From Chromera velia (lineage: Eukaryota): DNA of 50,798 bases. The DNA is taken from assembly GCA_018398765.1 (NCBI GenBank), contig JAHBMJ010000303.1:1-50798 (forward strand), given 5' to 3'. Of this stretch, positions 1,046 through 45,785 are shown piece after piece; position 1 is the stretch's first letter; the number at the start of each line of letters is the position of its first letter. The notes under the pieces are model-generated. The model saw only the letters and a program-made list of their open reading frames with translations, was not told the origin of the DNA and made no database searches. A program made the position numbers and the translations under genes.

Positions 1046-1249
1046 TGCGAGATATTACGAGGTCGGATTGAAAGGACAGTTCAACTGTATAAGGCTTGTC
1101 CAGGAAGTTGAACGAAGGTTCAGACGTAACGAAGCAGAGCAGGTGGCAGGAGCCGTCTCCGTTCACGCGCGTGCCTGTTTTTTTTTCCTATCGAAAAACC
1201 GGAATTTTGGAGGGCTAGAAAAACGAGTACATGGGTCGGGCAGTCAAGC

Positions 1250-3650
1250 GTAGTTAGTCCTCCCGGAGGGCTGCCCAATTTTTTTAGCAATTAGTATTCA
1301 TAGTTGTCCCAAAAGGCCGTTTATCGCTCGTTCAAAGGGTAGTTGACCTGCATTACCATGAAGGGCTGCCCAAATTTTGAGTGTATGAGCAGTAAGCAGC
1401 GGCTGGAGCCAGTTCCCCTGCGTAGATAGCTGCAACCCAGTGTCGAGAAGGACGCTGGCGAGGGTTAAGAGAGGTTGTAGGCATTGAGGAAAAAATGGGG
1501 AAAACAGAGAAAACAGTTAGCAAAAACTGTATTCGAGGGTGAAGGTGAGATTCAGGTTGTGCAAGGTCAAATTTCAAGTTTTTTACTCGCTCGAAGGAAG
1601 CCGATGTCGGTCGAACAGGGACCGGCAGATGGTGAGACGCAGCAGAGGGACACTGAGGGTCAGAGCCTAGGGGGTGACTCAGCAGGTAGCCAGTAGGTTG
1701 GCCCGGTGGCTCAGCCAGATGGTGCGCCAACCGGGAGTGCTGGACATTCGGCTTCAGATACTCATACGGAGGAGGAAGAAGGTGACAAGGATATGGACCC
1801 TATATCTTGTGTACTCAAGGCTATTAAGGGACTGGATCCTACTCAACTGGACTAGTTCAGAAAGGAGCGCCAGAAGGAGGCTTCTGCTAAGTCTAAGCAG
1901 AAGGCTTCCAAGACAGCTCAACGAAGTGCTGCAGCGGCGTTGCAGGCCGCACGCGGAGGGGGATTAGCTTCTAGCAGCAGCGGAAGTCTAGGCAGAAGTA
2001 GAGAGGCTGGAGGTGCCCCTCGCGTGTTGGATACTACCATCGTCAACGCTGTGAGACCGCAGCTCCAGAACCAACGGAAGGGTTCGAAGGCACGTCTGGT
2101 TGACCACATCCCTGAGAAGGAGAGGGGGAAGAAGCGTCCCCTCGCCGAACCTACCCAGCGAGAGGATATCTCAGAGGATGAAGACGAAGATAAAGCATCT
2201 CGGCAGTCTAGCCGATTCTAAGCTAAGTGAGATCCCTGTCGGCTAGGGCAGTAGCAGTGGGAGGACGCAACCTGTCACATTCAGGCGAGCTAGAGGACAC
2301 AGACCCAGTCGAGCTAAAAAGACATTGGTCACGAGCAGGGCTAGCGGCCACGGCCGACAGTATTGAAGACCAGGCACTGGAACTATCCACAAAAATCTGA
2401 TACTAAGCCATACTACAAAAACTGGAGCAGAGATGCCCGGGCATGCTCCCACTATCCTCCCCATTGGCGGTTAAGAATCAGAACTTAAGATAGCGTTCGC
2501 AACACTAGCTGGTACAAAAAGATATAAAATCGGCCTTCTTAGGGGGCAGTATCCTGGTGGCACCATGAGAAAGCACTAGATTCCCCACCATTCGGGGCGT
2601 ACGAATTATGCTACTTCTGACGAGGGCTAGAAAAAACAGTTAACAACTAGGTAAAAGTCAAAGAGACACTCAAGGCCACACAGTTTAGCAAAATGCTAGT
2701 GCACTGGCAGGCAGTGGGAACACGAGAGGCATTATGCAACAAGGTGATAACCATTTTAATATTATTCCCCACGAAATGGATAGGCGAAGTGTTACAGTTG
2801 AAAAAAGGGAACCTCGTATTCTAAACCAAGAAAGGAGTCGAACTCCTGCTATGCCATGTCCATCGTAGAAAAAACAATACCAAAGGGTGGGCCAGACATG
2901 CCCGCTCCCACTAGTATCAAACTTGGGGACACTCGTCAGAGAAGCAGTCCGCGAATTCCTAGCCGTAGCACCGCAGGAAGGACCTTTATTTCAGACAATG
3001 ACAGCCTTTGGAAATAAATGGTTGGGTAAGCCCCTAGGCCGCAACGTATTCCAGCGAGCCCTACAGAAAGCGATCACAGTAGCTGCAGTTCCAGAAGTTA
3101 CGCCGAGCGACCATACGATGTACTCATTAAGGTGTAGCAGGTTTACAGCTGCTGCAGCAAAGTAAGCACAGATCCCCCACGAAGTTGCAATCGATGTGAT
3201 TAGGCACAGTAGCACAAATACGTGGCTGGCATACCTTCTGCCTAACCTCCTGGACATCGCCGCATACATCCAAACCATCGCGTAATAGGGGCGTGGCGGT
3301 TGACAATGTGGGAGGTTGCAAGCGAACCGGAAACGCCAGCGCCCGCCCCACAGCACTAAGCAACCGACACGGGATGAAGCTAATCAAACAACGGCGTGAG
3401 TATGGTTTAAAAGGCCATGACTTAACTAACTGAGTTGTGGACTTGATAAGCAGTTTAACTAGGCAAGGCGCAGCTCATGCAGAGCTGTGGAGTCTGAAGA
3501 AACATAAATGCCGAGAAAGACTGGGGCGGATTCGAGCGGTCAGCCCGAAAGTCGGGCACCCGCCTCAGTTATTATGTTTGATCTCCTCCTTAAAGATCCT
3601 ACATTGTCAAATAGTTGTCCTTGACATACTGAGCAATCACCTAGGCGATT
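1250..3650 (+). mobile_element. Degenerate tyrosine-recombinase (YR) element without RT (Crypton-like or internally deleted DIRS/Ngaro); boundaries approximate
   Basis: Contains the YR pseudogene below. Sequence is rich in TAG/CTA. The 10-mer ATAGTTGTCC occurs at both 1300-1309 and 3611-3620. Confidence 0.6.
1604..3285 (+). pseudogene. Tyrosine recombinase with long low-complexity N-terminus (~555 aa when repaired)
   Basis: Removing a 5-nt duplication (CTAAG, 2218-2227), a 14-nt insertion (~2477-2490) and two G-run indels gives one ORF. Motifs: ALELSTKI[R]Y..GAVSWWHHEKALDSP (core-binding domain); box I TK[W<R]IGEVLQLK (2771-2803); RRKNNTKG.G; box II HTM[Y]SLR[C][S][R]FTAAA (3121-3141, consensus HSLRRGG); I[R]HSSTNTWLAY with the nucleophile Tyr at 3232-3234. 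Confidence 0.85.
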
Positions 3651-4309
3651 ACTGAACACGCAGATGTAACAACATTTATGTGCATGCAGGCATGATTGGC
3701 TTCGAATCAGTCTTCGATGATACTTTTAACGATCAATGTTGGTTTTTCGATTTATTGTGGATCAACAAACTTATCGGCAAGTACGGTTTACCCCCCGGGC
3801 GCTAGTCAGATTTTGTAGGCTCTTTTATACCACCCACTGACCTTTTCCCATAAAAAAAACAAACCACCGGCAGCTTCCCACTCAAAAACCGCTTCATACC
3901 AGATTTTCCCCGAAAAATAGTATTTATATTATTATACATATATGTAGTGAAAAAGAAGTTTGTGAAAATAATGACATGGTTCTAGTAGAGTAGTAGTGAC
4001 TAAATATTGTACTATAAAATGATATGTTAAAATCATTTTAAAGTATTTTTTCTTTAAATTTTTCCTAAAAAAGAAATTTGAAGTCATTTATCCTCCATTG
4101 AAACATCTTGCTGCATCTGGCCGCATTTCCCTTACGCTAGCTGCTGGCACAGTGGCACATCAGAGTTAGAATCGTCCTGACCTGACCCAAACCGGTCACA
4201 GAGCGCCTTTTTCTTCCGAGTACACCGTTTAAGCTGTACACTTCACTTTTTGCACCCGTCTTCAAAGCTAGCTGCGACTCTACGTCCTCTTCTTCAGGAA
4301 GGCCCTTAC

Positions 4310-5720
4310 GGCTGACCGCCTCACTGATTGGCTGACTGGCTGACTGACTGGCTGACTTGTGGAATGACTGGCGCTGACTTACTGGTTGACTGGCAGGCTG
4401 ACTGACTGGCTGACTTACTGACACTGTCAGACTGACTGACTGACTCACTGTTTGGCTCACTGACTCACTGACTGAGTGACTCATAACTCATGACTTACTA
4501 ACTGACTGACTTACATCTGACTCACTGACTGGCTGACTGACTGACTGACTGACTGACTGACTGATTGACTGACTGACTGACTGACACGACTCATGACTCA
4601 CTGACTGACTCACTAACTGACCGGCTGAGACTGCCTGACTTGCGGAATGACTCGCGCGGGCTGACTGGCAGGCTGACTTGCGCTGACTTACTGGTTGACT
4701 GGCAGGCTGACTGACTGGCTAACTTTAAGTTACTGACAGACTGACTAACTGACTCACTGTCTGGCTCACTGACTCACTGACTGAGGGACTCATAACCCAT
4801 GACTCATTGACTGACTGACTGACTGACTGACTGTCAGTGACTGACTAACTGAATGACTGACTGACTTACTAATTCACTGACTAACTGACTCTTTGACTCA
4901 TTGACTGACTAACTCACTGACTGACTAACTCACTAACTGACTCATGATTGACTGACTGACTGACTGACTGACTAACTGACTGACTGACTGACTGACTGAC
5001 TGACTAACTGAGTCAGACTGACTGACTGACTGACTGACTGACTGACTGACTGACTGACTGACTGACTGACTCACTGACTGACTCACTGACTCACTGACTG
5101 ACCGCGGCTGACTAACTGCCCGACTTGCAGAATGACTCGCACGGGCTGAGTGGCTGGCTGACTTGCGCTGACTTACTGGTTGACTGGCAGGCTGACTAAC
5201 AGGCTGACTTACTGACAGACTGACTGAGTGACTGACTCACTATCTGGCTGACTGACTCGCTGACTGACTGACTTATGACTCACTGACTGACTGACTGACT
5301 CACCGACTAACTGGCTGAATCTGGCTGACTCACTGGCTTACTGACTGACTCACTGACTGACTGACTGACTCATGACTGACTGACTGACTGACTGACTGAC
5401 TCTCCGACTGACTGGCTGACTGACTGGCTCACTGACTGACTCACTGACTGACTGACTGACTCACTGACTCACTGACTCACTGACTCACTGGCTGTCAGTG
5501 ACTGACTGGCTGACTGACTGGCTGACTGACTGGCTGACTTGCGCTGACTTGCTGGTTGACTGCCAGTGGCTGGCTGACTGGTAGACTGACTGACCGGCTT
5601 GCTGGCTGACAAGCTGACTGACTGACTGATTGACTGGCTCAGCCTGGCTGTCAGTGAGTGATTGACAGCTAGGATTGACGGAGGGGCTTACTGGATCTGA
5701 CTGGCTGTATAACTGCCTCC
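4310..5720. repeat. (GACT)n satellite with embedded higher-order units
   Basis: Degenerate GACT/GGCT/CACT/AACT tetramers. The block GACTTG(C/T)(G/A)GAATGACT..GCTGACTTACTGGTTGACTGGCAGGCTGA recurs at ~4354, ~4637 and ~5122, and partially at ~5536. Confidence 0.95.
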
Positions 5721-6065
5721 GCTTTGCGTAGACGGCAGGACATGACAGGAGACCGTAGGAGACGGACGGAGACGGATTCTGACGGAAGGAGACGGTTTAG
5801 TCCCTCCCTCTACAAGTTGCAAAGAAAGGCTGGGCAGAACACTATCTTCATTTTGGATCTAGTCTCGGCTCCGGAGCCTTCGGTACAGACTGCCAAGTTG
5901 ATGGAAAAAACATGAGAAGACATTGAAAGACATGAGAGACCAGACTCATCAGGACTCATGCACAAACACCGATGATCAACGAACGATGCATGTACATACA
6001 CGCATGGGTCCATACACATGCATACATACACATATCACGTCATGCCTCCGACAAGGTCCATGCAA

Positions 6066-6208
6066 GCGGCGCCGGCCTTCGGCGCCCACCGGCAAGGTCT
6101 AGGCAGCGCTTCGGCGTCTATCGGCAGTGTCCGGGCGGCGCCTTCGGCGCGTACCAGCAGTTTCCCGGCGGCGCCTACGGCGCCTACCGGAAACTTCTCC
6201 GAAGGCCC
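6066..6208. repeat. ~32-bp tandem array of GCGCC-TNC-GGCGC mini-hairpins (MITE/DNA-transposon subterminal-like)
   Basis: Four units: gccttcggcgc, gcgcttcggcgt, gcgccttcggcgc, gcgcctacggcgc. AT-rich sequence follows from 6290. Confidence 0.7.
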
Positions 6209-6786
6209 ACCGACATCTTCCCATTTCAAAAACAGCTTTCTGACCACCACCCTGAGGTTACCGTAGCACGGTTTGACCTGTTTCTTTTTTAAGGGGCCCA
6301 GTCCATATTATTTTTTTAAGGGAAAATTTGACCCTACAGGACCATATATTATATATACATACAAGATGGTCCCGTAAATCTATTGGAAAGTCTAGTGGAA
6401 AGTATTCTTCTTCGAACGGCTCCACTTCTAATTGTCCCCCAACGCAAACGGCAGCTCAGTGAGTTAAGCTGTTTGATCAATGAAATTCAAGTCCCACAAA
6501 ATCCCACAAAACTCCAATTTCCGTGAAATTTATGCTTTTCGGGGCGGCGGAACCACAAACACTGACTGCCGGAGTGGCGGTCACCGCCCACTCATCATTG
6601 CTGGGATATGCTCAGTATTATGCTGGGTGACTGAGACTCATCATTATATTAATAGTGATATTAATAGAGTCTCATATGGAATGTGACAGTCAGTAATGCT
6701 TGTATGTTTCTTTCCCATGTGCTTGCCTTTTGAGCAGCACGTTTTCGCACACCAACCCTCGTAACTAGCTAGACGAAAGTGGGCCA

Positions 6787-8500
6787 TGATGGATGCGGGG
6801 ATATGGGAGCCGATTGAAGGGCAGAGGAGACGGAGAGGGAGGGGGTCGTAAACCTTGAGTTGAGGTCCTGGAGTAGGGATAAGAAGGAAGACAAAGCCGA
6901 AGAGAAGAAAACGGAGGCTTTTATCAAAATTCCAGAGAGTCTCAGACTGCTTGAAGGGCTAAGAATGGCTATTTTCAGAGGGCTTGTAGAGGGGATTCTT
7001 ATCCTTCAAGTGATTTTCCTGAATATTTTGGGAGGGTTGACAGACTGACTACACACGTTCCCTGAATTTTCAAAGACGTGCCGGCAGGTTTGGGAGGAGA
7101 TCAATAAGTTTACAGGAGCTTTGCAGGTAGCAGGTGTCTCTTCCAACAAAGTGTTCTTTGATCTACTACAGATTGAGCACTTTTTCGTTTTCTTTCTTGA
7201 GCTCTTTTGCTTCTAGTCCGTCAGGACCCTTTTTCTTTTATTGAAGTACTAGAATTTTTTTCAGATCCTCTCGTCTGCTGGTGCTAATCTGCTTTTCCTT
7301 TTAATTGATGGAGAAAAGAGGTTTAGGTCTGTGATCTGGCGAAGCCTTCTGTTCATTCGAGTGTTGAGAAACATGCAGTGCCACGATTCGAAAACGGAAG
7401 GTGATACGAGAAAAACCTGGAGGTATCATGCCTCTCAACAATTTGCTGCGGGCGTTGTGTGTGGATGGCTCACCACCAGAAGAGGCTATCTGCACCAGGT
7501 CCTTGAATCGCTTCAATTCGGAATCCTCCCGATCGAATCCCACCGTAGCTGCAGCAGACGAAGATGATGAAGGAAAGTTTCTTAACTTTTTTCATCTGGT
7601 GCGTGCCACTTTGTGGTATTGCGGGAAGCATGGCGCCCCCTGTTTGTATAATTGGCTGAGCATCTACCATCGATTTACTCTGCGCGACGAGTTCAAAGCG
7701 ACAGAGCAGAGGTTCTTTTTTGATCCTGAGGCAAACGAGGACGCCCTGTTTCTGTTCAAAACAGCAGTCACCGATATTCACGAGGATGGAAACCCTAATA
7801 TATTCCCCTTCTAATATAGAGAACTACTCAGGTAGTTCGTTCGAAGATCTCCGCTTTATCAATGCCACATATCGGGTAGATGCCATCATTTGGACAGTGC
7901 AGAACCCCGCTGTGATGGTTACCGAGTATGTCAGCAGAGAGAAAGTCCAGATTCTGTCTGATATGCACCGACTGAACGAAGCAATATCGGAGGATCGCGA
8001 CTACACCGCTTTGCGTATCTTTATTGCGTGGTTGCAAGCAGCAAGCAAACCCCCTAGAGCTAATGTACACAACTTTCCTTGCCTGTGGTAGGCAAAAAAA
8101 CTCGTCCCCAGGATTGATCTGGAAAGGCTTTCTATAGGAGAACTGTTTCAGGCTTTCCTACGCAATGGGAAATTGGTCTGCTAAACCTGATTCCTTCTGA
8201 CCGGGAAATCACCCTCCCGCAAGCCCCATACAGGTTGCTTAACAAAGAAAGAGTTCAGACAGTTAGCCCCTCCTCAGTGTGCCGTATACGGGGTGAACGC
8301 ACGGTCTTCTGAGTACTGCGGAGGGTGTAAGATAGTGTCTACTGCGGTGCTAACTGCCAGAGAGAGGACTAGAGGAAGAAGCCTTGGGGACACAAAAGGC
8401 AGTGCCCCCAACTGAGGGCTCATGTCTTTGACGTGATTGCCCTCGAGGAACCGGTATTTGCAACTCATCTGCAGATCGAGCCAATATTACAGAGTGAATT
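6787..8500 (+). pseudogene. Intronless MYND zinc-finger protein pseudogene (~550 aa)
   Basis: 8278-8405 reads CAV[Y<C]GVNARSSEYCGGCKIV/YCGANCQRED[*<W]RKKPWGHKRQC, a MYND finger with TGC->TAC, TGG->TAG (8370-8372) and a 1-nt frameshift. Upstream ORF pieces 6860-7048, 7401-7814 and 7720-8091 join after removing small insertions. Confidence 0.8.
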
Positions 8501-9659
8501 AAAAATTGAATCCCGAATTACCCATTAAAATAGAATCTTTTAATAGATGTCACAGCAGTAAAGTTAAGAAACATGTTAGAAATATGCATCAGAAATACGT
8601 TAAAAATTTTATAGAAATATTATAGAAATCTTATATTTAAGAAATCTGGACCACATTTCTAATTTTTTAAGAAGTTTAGGCTAATTAAATTCACGTAAAT
8701 TCATCTAAATCTAGATCCAAATTCACTTAAATTCATTTATGAATTCACTCATTTTTGCAGGGTAGATCAAAAAAATATATTTCTCATTTCTATGTTTTAA
8801 AGCAACAGTCCTACAACACAAAGTGTTTGATACGGTCACACGGAGGTAAACATAAGACATTGCTAAACACTTTTTTTTTAAAGCATTTTAACTAGCATAT
8901 TTTAAAGTCAAATTACAGTATTATATTATTAGATTTACAAATTTTTTTTCTACCATTTCCTTTATAATTTTCTTAGTAATCACGATTTTTAAAAGCACTA
9001 CCGTAACTGCTATTTTGATTACTATGCGCCTAGCTACGCACGGCGGCCGCCACAGTCTGGCGGCCAGACGTCTGGTAACCATCGTAACTTGTTTACTCCA
9101 ACCCGTATAGGCAGTGTAATCTAGAGTGTGATACGAAAAATCTATTTGAATCTAGTAGCACTGCGTATACTAAGCTGATTTCGTATGAAGTTCAACATAC
9201 ACGCCCAGACACACGCACAATACCGTATTACAGTGGGGCCTAGTTCGAGTTCGGGATTGAATCTATGCAGGAAATACTAGGTTGGCCTGAGCCTATATGG
9301 CTCACCGGCTTTAACCTCATACATCATCATCATCATCATCATTAATACGTTCCCCAGTACCTTCCATATACCATATTCCAAAGTTGTTACCTGGATCTTC
9401 TTTTATTCACTCTCTGTAATCGCTCATCCGTACCGCAATCCTTCTCCAACCGGGTCCTCAAGTCTTCCCCCCTTTCTCTCCACTGAGTCTTCAGGCAATC
9501 GCGCTGTGTCGAAACTGATGGAGAGGTGGATTACGGTCTGCCCCGGCCACTGTCAGTGAAGCAGCAGCGAGAACGACACGCATGCATGCAGACAAGGAGA
9601 GTCGGGCCAGGTCTGAGCGCAACCAGACCACCAGATAGCTGTCAGCTTCAAGCGAAATC

Positions 9660-26900: not shown

Positions 26901-29303
26901 TTGTCTGTCTATCTGGTAATCGCGTCTGTCTGCAGCCACGGCACTGTGACGACTTTTTTCCATTTGAGCCTTCTGAGAGCGGTGGCCAAAAAGCCCTCGG
27001 AGGAGGCGTTGGCCCTCCGGATTGTGCCGCCGCGCCCCCCCGCAGGTGGAGGTCGGGAGCGTGTGATCACTCTGGTGTTTGGGAGGAAACCTCTGGTGTC
27101 TCCCTACGGACTGGAGGCACACGACGACGCCAAAAAGGGGGTGGCAACTCTGAGGTGAGGTGAGGTGAGGTGAGCTGTGGATGTGAGGGAGGCCTGGAGA
27201 AAAATCACCTGATTCGTGTCCATCTCTTCTCAGTTTTGGGGGGGGGATGATAATGATGAAGAAAAGAAGGCGCACCTTCTCTCTCCTGTTTGCGTCTGTC
27301 TCCCCGTGTTCACCTTTCTCTTTGCATCAATCTTTTCGTCAATTTTTCTGCCTATCCATTCATCGCTTTTGTTCTTCTTTTTCTACAGCTCCCCTGCCGC
27401 TCTTCCCAGAAACACAGAGAGATGGAGGAACGACAACGCAAAACATGCTCGAAGAAACTAATGCGAAAAACTAAATAAAGTGCACAAAGCATAGGTAGGA
27501 GACGTTTTCGCTGAAAAGTGAGCCCAGAAGGCAGAGAGACAGTCGGTTTGCTCAATTCCTTTCCTCTCCACTATATGTCTTCTGTCCCTCTGTCTGTCCG
27601 CCCAGCTCTCATCCACTACTCATGATCGAAAGCCTTCCCTCCCGGGCATTACGGAAGGAATGTCACATGCGTGCCCCCCTACATGCAGGTCGGTGGAGTT
27701 TCCGCCTCGCCGTGCTTTCGAGGAATCCCTTTTGAGAAGAATGAGGGCACTCGGCTTGGGCAGCGTCTCTCGAAGTCTTCAAGGCAGGTCGTGGTGTGGT
27801 GTGGTGTGGTGTGTGCGTTTTTTTTTGTTTGCCTGCCTGCCTGTCAGTGATTTCGTGCGTCTGTCTTTCTCTGTGTTCCCAGATGATAGGAGAGGATAGC
27901 AGAGGCTCTTGAAGGCAATCAGAGAAGCGTTCAGAGGCATAGCATAGAGTCATGGAGTCCTGTCAATTCGCAAGACCACAATCCCAGTTTTCTATCGGAG
28001 GGGAGATCTGTGTGGAATGGAAATGTTGTCACGTTGAAGAGTTTTTTTTGTTTTCAGCAAAGAAAAGTTTTTTGGAAGGCAGTGAGAGCAGAGTCAAAAA
28101 CATCAAAAACACAGCATTCTCATTCACCTTACTGCATCAGCCTCGGCAAGAGTGCAAACTTCCCTCAAACAAAATTGATCACGTGACATTCCGACGTTCC
28201 TGGATTCCTCCCTCCCTCCCTCCCTCCTCGATCCTCCTTCCTGCCTGACGGCTTGCTTCTCTGCCTACCCCCCTGTGTGCACGTCTGCATGAGTGAGTGT
28301 CTGCAGAAAACCTTGCGGCAGTGAGCAGAGAGATCGAACAGCTGAAGGGGGACCTCGCACTGCAGACAGGAGGGCCCACCCCGGCCCCCCCAACGGCCTC
28401 CCTGGCATCCTCTTCGGGAGACCCTGGCGCTGGGAGGGCTGCTGATGTGGTCAAGATGGACGGTCCGGCCGACTACTCCCAGGCTTCTCTCGATCTGTCG
28501 GCAGTTCAGAGACTCATGGCACTGTTTCAAAAGAAGGTCGGGGTATGCAACACGGACAAAAAAAGAAGAAATCATTGAAAGACATGCTTGGTCGTGAAGC
28601 GAGTCAAGTTCTCCAGATTTCTTGCGGGCAATATCGCTTCCAGGGGTGTTCTCTTCACAGTCACTTTCTTTGTATAGGTTTCACTTGGTTGCGTTTGGTG
28701 AGAGAGCCACTGCAGTGGCCCAGTCGGAGCGTCGGCCTGTCTGTGTTTGCTCCCTCGCATACAGAAATTCTGCATGCTGCGTGTTTGGTGTCTTCCGATT
28801 CTTGTTTTCTGTTACTTCGATCTCTCTTTTGGCTCTCTCTGGCTCTGCAGGTTGAGTTGGAGACAGAGACGGGCACGGAGGAGCAGAGGCAGCAGACGCT
28901 TGCAGAACTTCACTCTGTCCTGCAGCACCCCCGTGTGCAGAGAACCCTGGAGACCTCTGGGGGTGCACAGGCCGACAGGGACAGAGAGAGACGTCGCAGG
29001 GCATCCACGGGCACAGACAACACGCAAAGCACATATCCGGAAGGGGAAGACGCGCAGCTGCACAGAGGGGAGAGGGAGGCCGCAGTGCCAGAGGCGGATG
29101 AGGTATCTCAACTAGGCGACACTCACCCAACGCACTCGGCAGAGGCAGAGACCGAGAAATCTCTTGTCAGCCCACCCGCCCCGCCACCGCCGCCGTTTGG
29201 AGCTTCCGGCCACGATGACGTCACTGTGCCGTCCGCAGATGCGCAGCAAGACGCAGCGGCTGCTGCAACGGGGGAAGCAGATCTTCCAGATTTGTTGTCC
29301 TAG
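23928..29303 (+). CDS. Multi-exon hypothetical protein; 5' exons uncertain
   Basis: Clear final exons 28307-28536 (ENLAAVSREIEQLKGDLAL..QRLMALFQKK, coiled-coil-like) and 28851-29303 (ends TAG). Candidate upstream exons with splice signals at ~23928, ~24371-24534, ~25798-25986, ~26936-27154 and ~27606-27688. No recognised domain. Confidence 0.55.
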
Positions 29304-29617
29304 TGAGGAGGTGAGGGGAGACGCTTATAATGATTCCTATAGTGACTACTAGGGTGACTAATAGTAAATAATTCATATTGCGGAATTAATGCGGATGCAG
29401 CGGATTGCAGTTTTATCATTGATCACCTATTTTTTTTCACATACCCCGACAAAACATATGAGTAACTCTGGATTAAGTTATAATTTTGGACATTCAGTAC
29501 GAAAAGTGAGAATAATGTGAAATGTATGTCATATAATGACTCATATTGCAAAAATTGTACGTGGAAAATTGTAAAGGCGTAAGTAACTAGGTAAGTGATA
29601 GAAAAAATGGAACAGTA

Positions 29618-30386
29618 TGTGAAAGAAAACGATGGTCCCGTTCCTGGTCGGATTCGCGGAGGGTGAATTCCGATCCCGGCCTTTCCATTCGTCCCTTCGC
29701 CCCGAGCCAGAGAAAGGAGCGACGCACACGTGGCGGCCCATCCACACGGGGTGGCGGGGCGCCTGCGACAGAGGTGTGCATGTTGTGAGTTCCATGGTAT
29801 GGCCTGCATGCACTTTGGCGTTAGAAATATACCCGAGGCACTCACCGTGGTGGTGTATGCTCTAGGCCTTCATATGGGATTCAATTAGGCCGATGGTGCG
29901 GTTATGCCATCGGAGGCTTCAGAATTAATTCTGGTCCCGAATTAATTTCCATAAATTTCCAGACAGTCAGACAGACGTGCACGGCGGTTACCGTCCGTCT
30001 AAATGAGAGACGTGACCTAGGAATTAACAGAGCTTCATGTGTAGGATCTGTACTTTGCCTTATGTGTCTCTATGGTTCTCTTGTGCTCTGAGTAGCTCTG
30101 AGTAATGCACGAGGCCACCAGCAGGAGCGTACTGTAGACTGTAGGGGTTTATGGATTTTCTGTCTGGTGAAGAGACTGATCAGATATTTATTTCTGATTA
30201 TCTGTATCGGTCTAGACGAGTACGTTAGGATGACGTATTTGCTGTGGTCCTCTAATAGGAGAGGGCCAGGAATTTGGGAGTATAGCAGTTTGAGGAATCC
30301 TCTGGATAGGCTAAAGGATCGACACGGGAGGGCCCATAGGATCCCACTAGAGGAGTCTCAAGAGAGGTGAGACTTTACTTTTCACT
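29618..30386 (+). repeat. 5' LTR (769 bp; 767 bp if it ends at CA 30384)
   Basis: TGTGAAAGAAAAC...TACTTTTCA(CT). Direct repeat of 44588-45336 plus two extra 10-nt insertions. Confidence 0.95.
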
Positions 30387-30403
30387 GGCGCCGTCGCTGA
30401 GGG
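30386..30403 (+). promoter_or_regulatory. Primer-binding site (TGGCGCCGTCGCTGAGGG); not iMet-type, resembles tRNA-Asp-type
   Basis: TGG 1 nt after the LTR CA is complementary to tRNA CCA. Similar to the Athila-type TGGCGCCGTTGCCGGGG PBS apart from transitions. tRNA identity is inferred. Confidence 0.75.
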
Positions 30404-30473
30404 AGTCTCCCCTTGTTATTTCGACAACATTCCCCTTCTTGTATTCCTGATTCCCTACTGCAGGTGACTTACC

Positions 30474-41420
<10,947 letters not shown>

Positions 41421-44400
41421 ATCCGGCGGCGTGGAACTTCTGGAGGGGAAGGGTGCGGGGCCTTTTTCTTTCTCTCTTTTGTGTCCTGTTTCTGTCGTCT
41501 GCTCTTTCCTTTCTGTCGTCCCTTTGCAGGTAGGCGTGTACAGGTTTTTTGTTTTTCGCTCAAGGTGGGGACGACTGGGGTTTGGGTTTGGGCATAAAAG
41601 GAGCTAGATAGGCTAGAGGTACTGTTCGTCCCTTTTATCCATTTCTCTCTCTCGTTAATCTGTTCTCCCAGATAGGCGATTAGATGGGGAGGTGACAAGA
41701 AAGAGGGGCAGGAGACAAGGGGTCTCCTGCTGGGTGGGCGTGGGCTCACCCAGGCAGGAGAGCAAGAAGAGTTAGGCAGGAAAGCAAGAAAGCCAGAAGA
41801 GCAGGTCCTCTTCCGCTGCACCCTTCCGTACACCTCCACAGCCATACATGTTCGGTAGTTGTCCTGTTCTGTCTCGTCCTGTTTGTGTTCGTGTTTGTTT
41901 GCTTGTATTCACTGCTATGGCGTAGTTGGCGCATGTGCCTCTGCATCATGGGCAAAGCATCCAATGCTCGGGCAATGCATGAGGCCATGCAATAAGCGGG
42001 CCCAAATTCCATGTAAACCGAGTATCAATTTTTTGGGGCAGCTCGGGTGGAACAAACGAGCGTAGACTGTTTAAGGTCAATTACGTGGGATGTATGGGCG
42101 GGTGGATCCAACGTTCATGAGGAGGCATTACCCAGTCTGTTCGTATCCGTTGTCTTGCACTCTGTGTTTGGTGCCCGTCTGCATAAGAGATCCATGCGCA
42201 GGAAACAGACGGGCTCTAGGACGGGCTGTTTTCGCGGCGAAGGTGAGTGCCCGAAGCACTCAAACAGTCCGATCCCTGTGCGTTTTCCTTCCTCCGTTTT
42301 GAGCAGAATGGGCCTGGCCAGACTAGTTAGGCAGCCTGAGAGAACGCTATCAGCTGGTATGAGGAGGCTTGAAACTTTAGCGTGAATAATTTTTTTTTTT
42401 GCATCCATTTATGACCTGGCTGCCTGTCTGCGATCCGTTGTGGTGATAGAGTTGGCGTACTGCCTGACCGACGCTTTGATCTGTACTTTCGTCTCACTCC
42501 CTGCAGGGCTTTGCATCACCCCCGAGTGAAACCACGGGAGAATGTAGATAGAAAGGGGGGAGGGTGCTCATGGAGAGCATCACGTCTGGCAGGTGGCAGC
42601 CTAGGCAAGGGGAAAGACCACTGTGCGCATACTGAAACTTTTTGTCTCTTTGTCTCGTCTCTCTATACACAGCACTTTAGCAGAATCGCAAGGGCGCCCT
42701 GCGTTCATGAATGAACTGTTCCAGTCGGATGTGTAACTACCGTGCAAAAGAGACCTGATCCAAGTGCAGGGGGCATTTTGGGTGAGAATGAGAGCTCAGG
42801 TGTGTTATAGGTGCTTCTTTCCTCTGCCGGCAGCTTATCCTGCCTGAAGCCTGTCCTCCACTCTGGGAGGTTAGGTTAAGGATGAGTGTAAGTCCGGGTA
42901 TGTTCGGTTTTGTTGGTTTGTATTTATGAAATCCTTTCCCCAGAAGGTCAGGGGAGTGCATGGTGGCTCTCCTATAATTTTTAATTGTTTTCGCAAGGCA
43001 TGCATGAAGGGGTAGGGGGTGCCTCGGGGGCACCTTCCTTGAAGTGCAGTTCGTTTTTATATATTTGTTTTCTCTCCCTCTTTCTTCTTTGTTTGGATTT
43101 CCGTATGGCCCGGGGAAGCTTGTCACATCATAGGGGCGTGCATGGTCGGTGAACGCTAGCCGGGTGTGGGCATCTTCAGGTTTTCCGTTTTAAATTCTTC
43201 TTCACAGACGGAAAGGAGCTGGGAGGGAAAGGCCTTCCCGTCCTGTCTATGTAGGCAGAGACCTTTTGCAGTCATGTTTTCCTTGAGCTGCCGGTTTACG
43301 TTAGGGGGCCTAACCCATTGCCGACCTGAACTAGAGTAGGGTGGGCACAGCATGTAGAACATTTTCCCTTCCTTTTGTGGTGATCGCGGGGCTATCCACA
43401 CATACCATATGTACAAGTCCGTGAAAGAAGGAAAAGAAATACTGGGGGAGAAGGGGGTAAGGACTTTGCTTTTGCCAGGCCTGTTCTGGAAGAATAGGTC
43501 TCCTTGCCAGGGGGGCAAGGCATGCCGAGGCTGTCAAAGGCTCTTGGTTTCCAATGAACTGCATTTTGGTTTGCATGAGGAATGCTTGTGTTTAGTTTAC
43601 CTTTTTTTTCTTTTATTTCTTTCATACGTTCAGAGCAGGGTCCGTCCGGAGCAGGAAGCATGACAGGTAGCGCGGGCTCCTACATGCTAGATGTCTTCGG
43701 TTCTCTGCGTGTGGGGCGAGGCTCCATCTGGAGGCAGATGGGCTGTGTGTCCCATGCGTTCATTAGCATAAGTAGGCATGGGCTCGGGGCTTGTGTTTTT
43801 CTGCGCTGTTCCTTTCGCTTTTTTCGGTGTGGTTTCGTTTTGTTCTGTTCTTCCAGCCCGGTTGGCTGGTATCCCTTTCCATGTTTGCCCTGTACATGCG
43901 TGAGCCCGGTGTGCTCTCACTTATTAAAGGATAATAAATGACATCTGTAGAGGACGGCGCGTGAGAGCACAAAAAAAAAAATGAGGAGAGAAGAGGTAAA
44001 TGATACATGAGTAATTCTTTTATGATTGTGCGGTGTTGGTTGGAAGGAAAAGCAGTCTCCGTTTCGGGTGTGGGGAAAGGGGAGGACCTATGGCAATCCC
44101 TTCCATGCATATCTTTTCAACGTGTAGGCGTTTTGAGCTGGGTGTGTTAGGGGCACGTCCTGGCATGGCTGCGTCCAACCTATGAGCGCACATTCTGGGT
44201 TGCTGGCCGTAGTAGCGGGGCAGTGTTTGAGCAGTTCGGGGGATGCCGTATTTTTATGATTTGCTCGGATGGGAAGCGGTGCTTCTCGCTGTAGGGACTC
44301 GTCTGTGCTTGCACAGGAGCCTCCGGTAGCAATTGCCTGTTTGCATATGCGGATTACTCTGCCTGCATATAGAGGTCCTTTAGATAAAAGAAGGACGCTC

Positions 44401-44576
44401 CCATTAGGTCGCCAGTTGCGGTGGCTGGCAGGCAATGGTTGAGCATCAGAAAAAGAGGAAAAGGAAAATTGGGGAGCCGGGTGATTAAAGAAAGGTCTTT
44501 TCTTATGCTTCCCGATCCCCCTCGTCAGAGAGGGGTGTGTTATGCTGCGTGCTCCATAGTCTTTCCTCGAGGGCTT

Positions 44577-44585
44577 GGGAGGAGG
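44577..44585 (+). promoter_or_regulatory. Polypurine tract
   Basis: GGGAGGAGG, preceded by GAGGG, 2 nt upstream of the 3' LTR. Confidence 0.75.
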
Positions 44586-44587
44586 TG

Positions 44588-45336
44588 TGTAAAAGAAAAC
44601 GATGGTCCCATTCCTGGTCGGATTCGCGGAGGGTGAATTCCGGTCCCGGCCTTTCCATTCGTCCCTTCGCCCCAAGCCAGAGAAAGGAGTGACGCATGCG
44701 CGGTGGCCCGTCCACACGGGGTAGCGGGGCGCCTGCGACAGAGGTGTGCATGTTGTGAGTTCCATGGTATGGCCTGCATGCACTTTGGTGTTAGAAATAC
44801 ACCCGAGGCACTCACCGTGGTGGTGTATGCTCCGGGCTTTCATATGGGATTCAATTAGGCCGATGGTGCGGTTATGCCATCGGAGGCTTCAGAATTAATT
44901 CTGGTCCCAAATTAATTTCCAGACAGTCAGACAGACGTGCACGGCGGTTACCGTCCGTCTGAATGAGAGACGTGACTTAGGGATTGACAGAGCTTCATGT
45001 GTTGGATCTGTACTTTGCCCTATATGTCCCTGTGGTTCTCTTGTGCTCTGAGTAATGCACAAGGCCACCAGCAGGAGCGTACTGTAGATTGTGGGGGTTC
45101 ATAGATTTTCTGTCTGGTGAAGAGACTGATCATATATTTATTTCTGATTATCTGTATCGGTCTAGACGAGTACATTAGGGTGACGTATTTGCTGTGGTCC
45201 TCTAATAGGAGAGGGCCAGGAATTCGGGAGTATAGCAGTTTGAGGAGTTCTCTAGATAGGCTAGAGGATCGATACGGGAGGGCCTATAGAATTCTACTGG
45301 AGGAATCTCAAAAGAGGTGAGACTCTACTTTTCATT
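44588..45336 (+). repeat. 3' LTR (749 bp)
   Basis: TGTAAAAGAAAAC...TACTTTTCA(TT); aligns end to end with the 5' LTR. Confidence 0.95.
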
Positions 45337-45609: not shown

Positions 45610-45785
45610 TTTCAATGCTGGCCGCGCCTGCGGCACGGTTCTTTCAAGACTGTCTGCGTCTTCCACAAAAAAATTCAAGTATACTTTATTTTGGCCACGC
45701 CTTCGGCACGCTACTTTCAAGTTAAGCCGCGCCTGCGGTGCAGACGTTTCAAGTCTGGCTGCGCCTACGGCGTGGCGTTTCAAGT
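45610..45785. repeat. Array of ~32-bp units with GCC-TNC-GGC hairpins (MITE-like relic)
   Basis: TTTCAA(G)..GCCGCGCC-TGC-GGCAC, GCCACGCC-TTC-GGCAC, GCCGCGCC-TGC-GGTGC and GCTGCGCC-TAC-GGCGT, within AT-rich sequence. Confidence 0.65.

What the first reader, a model, noticed from the sequence alone, without database searches (positions are those of the whole stretch)
2771..3234. Tyrosine-recombinase catalytic motifs eroded by C->T/G->A changes
Seen versus known YR consensus: box I R->W (CGG->TGG), HSLRRGG->YSLRCSR (CAC->TAC, CGT->TGT, GGC->AGC, GGG->AGG), GHSS->RHSS, plus TAA/TAG/TGA stops. Four such changes fall within 21 nt. An unrelated element class shows the same mutator at apparently higher density than the copia element. 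Ancestral codons are inferred from the motif consensus.
Basis: partly seen in the sequence, partly recalled or inferred. Interest (0 to 1): 0.7.

Follow-up and report, generated by a model that had tools for sequence, protein, structure and literature searches.

The report
Cytosine-erasing transposon decay in Chromera
A dead recombinase gene and a nearby retrotransposon in the alga Chromera velia, a free-living relative of malaria parasites, have decayed mainly by C-to-T and G-to-A changes, which likely reflects a transposon-directed cytosine mutator (probably tied to DNA methylation) resembling fungal RIP in outcome.

Summary
The window is Chromera velia DNA. Bases 2341-3285 are a dead tyrosine-recombinase gene (closest relatives Cvel_29281 and Cvel_9624) with 6 stops and 3 frameshifts. 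Four of five claimed motif changes hold (R>W, H>Y, R>C, G>R), plus GH>RH. The fifth, G>S, fails: both Chromera paralogues have Ser. So three changes, not four, lie within 21 nt, which is not a significant cluster. At 97 conserved codons, 16 differences are C>T/G>A-only, 2 reverse and 13 transversion-type. The mutator itself is solid in the copia element: against its family majority, 501 of 609 differences are C>T/G>A, on both strands, mostly outside CpG; its LTRs differ by 47 transitions of 49. The recombinase is harder hit (6 of 27 vs 17 of 206 stop-prone codons, p=0.034), most simply because it is older. Best reading: slow, transposon-directed loss of cytosines on duplex DNA, likely methyltransferase-linked; Chromera has 5 such genes, Vitrella 0. 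Targeting to transposons and the enzyme are inferred. My 10 paper searches found no report for chromerids; the scan found the same pattern before in fungi.

The parts
1604..2221 (+). Upstream low-complexity ORF1 of the recombinase element (about 205 codons, 2 internal TAG at 1694 and 1853); function not identified
   Evidence: Translation; no Pfam hit
2341..3285 (+). Pseudogenised tyrosine recombinase (N-terminal helical part plus catalytic domain) in four frame blocks; true start probably a little upstream
   Evidence: tblastn with Cvel_29281 (P0015), 44-49% identity per block, combined E 6e-61; family profile matches Cre structures and PF00589
2398..2406 (+). Stops TGA (faces Arg) and TAA (faces Gln)
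2470..2545 (+). Two frameshifts (near 2475 and 2543)
   Evidence: frame 1 to 3 to 2
2618..2650 (+). Stops TGA 2618 (faces conserved Trp) and TAG 2648 (variable position)
2777..2779 (+). Box I catalytic Arg changed to Trp (TGG)
   Evidence: R in 6 of 6 distant homologues and P0015
2822..2824 (+). Stop TAA at a variable position
2885..2898 (+). Third frameshift, between box I and box II
   Evidence: frame 2 to 1
3121..3141 (+). Box II motif read YSLRCSR; H>Y, R>C and G>R are lesions, Ser 3136 is the Chromera family state, catalytic Arg 3130 kept
3163..3165 (+). Stop TAA (faces Arg or Gln)
3202..3234 (+). G>R before the kept second His (3205); catalytic Tyr 3232 kept
29615..30384 (+). Left LTR of the copia-order retrotransposon (comparison element)
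   Evidence: 47 of 49 substitutions against the right LTR are transitions
31437..41420 (+). Copia gag-pol frame, 3327 codons, 17 stops, no frameshift
   Evidence: RVT_2 hit; 8 of 8 stops covered by paralogues face Gln or Trp
44585..45334 (+). Right LTR of the copia element

Best explanation
The recombinase gene is a dead transposon gene eroded, like the neighbouring copia element, by directional C-to-T and G-to-A changes on both strands, and these likely come from a transposon-directed cytosine methyltransferase whose marks (in CG and non-CG contexts) would be converted to thymine and accumulate with time after insertion. Shown: direction, both-strand symmetry, occurrence outside CpG, action after insertion (each LTR has its own changes), and the same signature in independent copies of both families. 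Inferred: that the process is confined to transposons, that a methyltransferase drives it, and that the recombinase copy carries about three times the copia's load because it is older.
For: Copia versus family majority (60% or more of depth): run X1 501 of 609 places have window A/T against family G/C, 45 reverse, 63 transversions; X2 500 of 601, 40, 61. About 7% of family C/G sites lost; G>A 7.3% and C>T 6.5% on the + strand, p=0.15. LTR pair: 47 of 49 substitutions are transitions, 22 in the left LTR and 25 in the right, strands interleaved with no runs; 32 of 47 outside CpG, rates CpA 16/98, CpG 15/88, CpT 9/96, CpC 7/117. Copia paralogue proteins: window-private changes 44 C>T/G>A, 4 reverse, 11 other; paralogue-private 48, 11, 7, over 626 codons. 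Recombinase: 16 C>T/G>A-only vs 2 reverse at 97 conserved codons, p=0.013 against a symmetric-transition expectation of 0.62. Two Chromera recombinase paralogues differ at 11 residues, 9 transition-type, 7 of them polarised by outgroups as C>T/G>A in Cvel_29281. The copia spectrum implies an equilibrium of about 15% GC, whereas repeat-masked host DNA of the window is 51.6% GC and a host intron 48.7%. TpA/ApT is 1.12 in the recombinase, 0.67 in the copia and 0.17-0.45 in three host coding stretches. Chromera has 5 DNA_methylase-domain genes and Vitrella 0 (PMC5890265 supplement row), with about 30 Mb vs 1.5 Mb of TEs (PMC4501334 passage).
Against: No methylome or enzyme was examined; the 5 genes are only a domain count and could include Dnmt2 or element-borne copies. 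No neutral host-DNA polymorphism was available, so TE specificity rests on composition. In the recombinase 13 of 31 differences at conserved codons need a transversion, and 16 of 31 is not significant against a symmetric model with fourfold transition bias (p=0.11). No DNA relative at 80% or more was laid on its coding part in X1 or X2, so its spectrum is read through proteins about 46% identical. The context estimates disagree: the LTR pair leans to CpA/CpG (p=0.035), while the 34 displayed family-polarised sites are CpT 12, CpC 11, CpA 6, CpG 5; these are only the best-supported 40 of 800 rows and probably favour rarely mutated sites.
Confidence: 0.6

Rival explanations
1. True RIP-like defence: a homology-sensing process mutates duplicated DNA in bursts, perhaps at a sexual stage, through a RID-like methyltransferase.
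For: 96% transitions between LTRs and 82% directional changes are in the range usually read as RIP (general knowledge); mostly non-CpG; mild CpA lean in the LTRs.
Against: No dominant dinucleotide; no same-strand runs within either LTR (P=0.73 and 0.79, low power with 22 and 25 sites); the recombinase copy is the more mutated although no copy at 80% or more was laid on it; the GACT satellite units at 4312-5646 show many transversion-type differences, though their alignments are ambiguous.
Confidence: 0.17
2. Genome-wide AT-biased mutation: all unconstrained DNA decays this way, and host DNA stays near 50% GC through selection or biased gene conversion.
For: C>T is the commonest mutation in most eukaryotes (general knowledge); GC-rich elements (60% ancestral GC) drift towards AT; no direct host control was obtained.
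Against: Host intron and masked host DNA are 49-52% GC with TpA at 0.38 of expectation, far from the 15% GC equilibrium of the TE spectrum; a transition share of 47 of 49 exceeds 80% (p=0.0015).
Confidence: 0.15
3. A cytidine deaminase (APOBEC-like) edits element DNA, either the cDNA before insertion or genomic DNA afterwards.
For: Context-relaxed C>T; the recombinase coding strand is A-rich and its lesions are about 10 G>A to 6 C>T.
Against: cDNA editing would give one-strand G>A, but C>T and G>A rates are alike in the copia (p=0.15) and both LTRs diverged after insertion on both strands; no reverse transcriptase was found beside the recombinase; no deaminase was identified.
Confidence: 0.08

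Closest known systems
Repeat-induced point mutation (RIP) of Neurospora and RIP-like TpCpG hypermutation in Pucciniomycotina (PMC3318451, passages seen)
   Same: C:G to T:A transitions concentrated in transposons, on both strands, killing reading frames by nonsense codons
   Different: Here no dominant target dinucleotide, no strand-coordinated runs detected, and the host is an alveolate alga; homology sensing and sexual-stage timing untested
Dim2-dependent mitotic C>T mutation of TEs in Zymoseptoria tritici (PMC8016269, abstract and section 11 read)
   Same: Methyltransferase-linked, TE-confined, gradual C>T accumulation is the model that best fits these data
   Different: There more than 98% of C>T falls at CA; here CpA and CpG are about equal and CpT and CpC are also hit; the enzyme here is unidentified
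Deamination of methylated cytosines in TEs marked in CG, CHG and CHH (plants, Klebsormidium; low CH methylation on Symbiodinium TEs; PMC5890265, passages seen)
   Same: All-context TE methylation would give this context-relaxed transition excess
   Different: No methylome was found for Chromera in my searches; Symbiodinium depletion is described for CG
Chromera velia tyrosine-recombinase proteins Cvel_29281 and Cvel_9624; YR transposons (DIRS, Crypton)
   Same: Same recombinase family, 46-52% identical, same R-K-H-R-H-Y layout and Ser in box II
   Different: A separate subfamily copy, broken by stops and frameshifts; only one upstream ORF and no reverse transcriptase detected, so the superfamily is unresolved

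Membership tests
Tyrosine recombinase | R-K-H-R-H/W-Y catalytic residues in order | tested here: met
   All six positions align with homologues; four kept, two changed in this copy
Tyrosine recombinase | Profile similarity to PF00589 or solved recombinases | tested here: met
   Window pieces alone give no hit; homologues P0014 and P0018 pass the PF00589 cut-off, P0015 is below it at E 2.6e-4; family profile matches Cre at E 4e-4
DIRS/Ngaro retrotransposon | Reverse transcriptase/RNase H in the same element | tested here: not met
   No Pfam hit in 15 read-through frames covering 1130-4290 outside the recombinase frames and 5700-9400; a deleted or very decayed RT cannot be excluded
DIRS/Ngaro retrotransposon | Split direct or inverted terminal repeats | tested here: inconclusive
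   Only a 17-nt direct repeat (1267/1362) and a 15-nt one were found in 1100-4300; decay could hide them
Crypton DNA transposon | Recombinase as the only catalytic gene, short terminal direct repeats, placement in the Crypton clade | tested here: inconclusive
   Gene content fits; ends undefined; no reference set was available for a tree
RIP | Directional C:G to T:A excess in repeats | tested here: met
RIP | Strong dinucleotide preference (CpA in Neurospora, recalled; TpCpG in Pucciniomycotina) | tested here: not met
   CpA 16%, CpG 17%, CpT 9%, CpC 6%
RIP | Many same-strand changes per event | tested here: inconclusive
   No runs in 22 and 25 LTR sites; low power, and several rounds would erase the signal
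RIP | Triggered by sequence duplication, sparing single-copy DNA | tested here: inconclusive
   Host composition suggests sparing; no direct polymorphism control
RIP | RID-type methyltransferase and premeiotic timing | not testable with these tools
   No whole genome held; only a count of 5 DNA_methylase genes in print

The most novel reading that the evidence does not exclude
Chromera velia runs an active, methyltransferase-driven genome defence that converts cytosines to thymines in every transposon class and every sequence context, a RIP analogue evolved independently in an alveolate and absent from its relative Vitrella.
Probability: 0.3. Interest if true: 0.8.

Novelty: new variant of a known kind. 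Interest (0 to 1): 0.55.

Why it matters
The broken recombinase by itself is an ordinary dead transposon gene. What it records is less ordinary: a strong, context-relaxed cytosine-to-thymine erosion of transposons in a chromerid, the free-living kin of apicomplexan parasites. If a methyltransferase is responsible, Chromera offers a culturable non-fungal model for mutagenic transposon defence, with Vitrella (0 such genes in the published count) as a natural negative control. It also warns that many predicted Chromera TE proteins are mutated relics and that LTR-divergence dating there will overestimate ages.

Tried and rejected
No whole genome was held, so paralogues came from protein collections and laid contigs. 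Pfam on the two recombinase read-throughs: nothing. Word-based search with the C-terminal piece among longer proteins: 0 of 289 candidates; with P0003: only itself of 57; with alignment A2: 5 of 7997 scored. Of 12 HMMER hits, P0005, P0007, P0011 and P0013 were repeat or Ig-like proteins and were dropped; the short P0006, P0008 and P0009 were left out of the conserved-site count. Metagenome loci L001-L004 match the recombinase only at 24-34% and gave no element architecture; only their ORFs and composition were inspected. Laying contigs on 2200-3400 found no paralogue at 80% or more over the catalytic part; a filter can drop contigs, so this is not proof of absence. No RNA holder was listed. 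The satellite at 4312-5646 was tried as a control but slippage makes its alignments unreliable. Rejected: targeted erosion of catalytic motifs, CpG-only decay, one-strand cDNA editing, G>S at 3136 as a lesion of this copy. No language-model look-alike search of the recombinase is included. Ten paper searches found no paper on cytosine methylation, RIP or C-to-T bias in Chromera; the library lacks most subscription papers, 11 of 23 supplements of PMC9998398 and 3 of 16 of PMC4501334 were not searched, and bioRxiv supplements are closed, so a prior mention may exist.

Full report
Source. The window is eukaryotic, about 50% GC, rich in microsatellites. An open frame of its LTR element (35490-36677) clusters at 90% identity with five Chromera velia CCMP2878 proteins, and the best relatives of the recombinase are Chromera proteins Cvel_9624 and Cvel_29281. 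No whole genome was held.

What the feature is. tblastn with the full-length Cvel_29281 (P0015, 326 aa) lays a tyrosine-recombinase gene on 2341-3279 in four frame blocks at 44-49% identity, combined E 6e-61. There are three frameshifts (near 2475, 2543 and 2888) and six in-frame stops (2398 TGA, 2404 TAA, 2618 TGA, 2648 TAG, 2822 TAA, 3163 TAA). Four stops face Arg, Gln, Trp and Arg/Gln, the residues one or two C>T/G>A steps from a stop; two sit at variable positions. The family profile matches Cre recombinase structures and two members pass the PF00589 cut-off. Upstream lies one low-complexity ORF (1604-2221, two internal TAG). No reverse transcriptase was detected in 15 read-through frames around it, so the element is either a Crypton-like DNA transposon or a deleted DIRS-like one; this is unresolved.

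Checking the observation. The codons are as stated. Homologues confirm R>W (2777), H>Y (3121), G>R (3139) and G>R (3202); Cvel_9624 supports R>C (3133). The G>S at 3136 is not a lesion of this copy: both Chromera paralogues carry Ser, while distant homologues have Gly. Three changes in 19 nt are expected by chance with probability 0.09-0.25 at the gene's background rate. Only two stops, both TAA, are in frame inside the given coordinates. Two of six catalytic residues are lost.

Spectrum in the recombinase. Of 298 mapped codons, 97 are conserved (a Chromera paralogue plus at least 3 of 6 distant homologues agree). Of these 66 are kept, 16 differ by C>T/G>A only, 2 by the reverse, and 13 need a transversion; many of the last are conservative and probably reflect subfamily divergence (inference). 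The direction is significant (16 vs 2, p=0.013 against the 0.62 expected from symmetric transitions), but the share 16 of 31 is not significant against a fourfold transition bias (p=0.11; p=0.007 against twofold). Independently, the two Chromera paralogues differ at 11 residues over their shared part; 9 are transition-type and 7 are polarised by outgroups as C>T/G>A in Cvel_29281, including a box II R>W. No DNA relative at 80% or more was laid on the catalytic part in runs X1 and X2; one contig of run X3 matches 2200-2448 with 5 other letters, the 4 listed all transitions.

The mutator, measured where copies abound. The copia-order element at 29615-45334 has LTRs differing at 49 of 750 sites, 47 of them transitions, split 22 and 25 between the LTRs with strands interleaved, so the changes arose after insertion on duplex DNA. 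Laying 7264 and 7956 contigs of runs X1 and X2 on 28000-41500 and keeping places where 60% or more of depth disagrees with the window gives 501 of 609 (X1) and 500 of 601 (X2) places with window A/T against family G/C, 45 and 40 reverse, 63 and 61 transversions. X1 may be the source of the window and the two runs may not be independent. That is about 7% of family C/G sites, alike on both strands (p=0.15). The 3327-codon frame has 17 stops and no frameshift; all 8 stops covered by paralogue proteins face Gln or Trp and the family reads G at 33635. Private changes in paralogue proteins show the same bias (48 C>T/G>A, 11 reverse, 7 other). Context is relaxed: in the LTR pair CpA 16/98, CpG 15/88, CpT 9/96, CpC 7/117; the 34 displayed polarised sites lean the other way but are a selected 40 of 800 rows.

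Load. Stop-prone codons turned to stops: recombinase 6 of 27, copia 17 of 206 (odds 3.2, p=0.034). The recombinase also has three frameshifts in 1 kb against none in 10 kb of copia frame, so greater age is the simplest cause (inference). Age and copy number could not be separated here.

Is it aimed at transposons? Not tested directly. The copia spectrum implies an equilibrium near 15% GC, while repeat-masked host DNA in the window is 51.6% GC with TpA at 0.38 of expectation and a host intron is 48.7% GC. TpA/ApT rises from 0.17-0.45 in host coding stretches to 0.67 in the copia and 1.12 in the recombinase. This points to targeting but does not exclude a genome-wide bias offset by selection or gene conversion.

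Mechanism. Best supported (0.6): a cytosine methyltransferase marks transposons in CG and non-CG contexts and the marked cytosines become thymines over time. A published table counts 5 DNA_methylase-domain genes in Chromera and 0 in Vitrella (PMC5890265, one supplement row); Chromera has about 30 Mb of TEs, Vitrella 1.5 Mb, and only 22.8 kb of Chromera DNA was annotated as DIRS (PMC4501334, passages and supplement 11). The closest experimental precedent is Dim2-dependent mitotic C>T mutation in Zymoseptoria (PMC8016269, abstract and section 11), which differs in its strict CA preference. True homology-triggered RIP (0.17), genome-wide bias (0.15) and a deaminase (0.08) remain open. It works like RIP in outcome but is not filed as RIP: the dinucleotide preference was tested and not met, and the enzyme and timing could not be tested.

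Novelty. Ten full-text searches and passages of PMC4501334, PMC5890265, PMC9998398 and PMC3318451 gave no report of methylation-linked or RIP-like mutation in chromerids; the library is incomplete and some supplements were not searched. The scan holds no notes on this genome and two similar findings in fungi. Verdict: the recombinase lesions are mostly real but individually ordinary; the underlying mutator is well shown and appears to be a new variant of a known kind in a new lineage. Interest 0.55.

Noticed in passing
window 29615-45334: A 15.7-kb copia-order LTR element with an unusually long single frame (3327 codons), a long unexplained region between integrase and reverse transcriptase (about 36700-39600), and about 3 kb of non-coding DNA before the right LTR; depth of laid contigs is tens of times the single-copy level.
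   Followed up: partly
window 2200-2448: A 699-nt contig of run X3 matches at 98% (4 listed differences, all transitions, two in each direction) and then continues with unrelated letters, while runs X1 and X2 show a single unbranched contig there; it may be an allele of another culture or a copy missing from those runs.
   Followed up: no
window 4312-5646: GACT-based satellite with higher-order units of roughly 300-470 nt, very low CpG (0.35 of expectation over 4501-6000).
   Followed up: partly
window 3790-4290 and 8500-9100: AT-rich patches (37-40% GC) that may be termini of non-autonomous DNA transposons or very old, cytosine-depleted repeats.
   Followed up: no
window 7365-8100: A frame with protein-like sequence interrupted by stops and no Pfam hit, flanked by AT-rich DNA; possibly another decayed element.
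   Followed up: no
window 28305-29278: A host gene whose two exons (28305-28534, 28849-29278) are joined in a contig of run X4 with no other letters.
   Followed up: partly
window 13720-13897: Exon that reads like a protein-kinase N-terminal lobe (label from recall, not tested).
   Followed up: no
window 45610-45766: Three diverged copies of a 52-nt GC-rich unit just outside the right LTR; similar short GC-rich repeats occur at 6060-6200.
   Followed up: no
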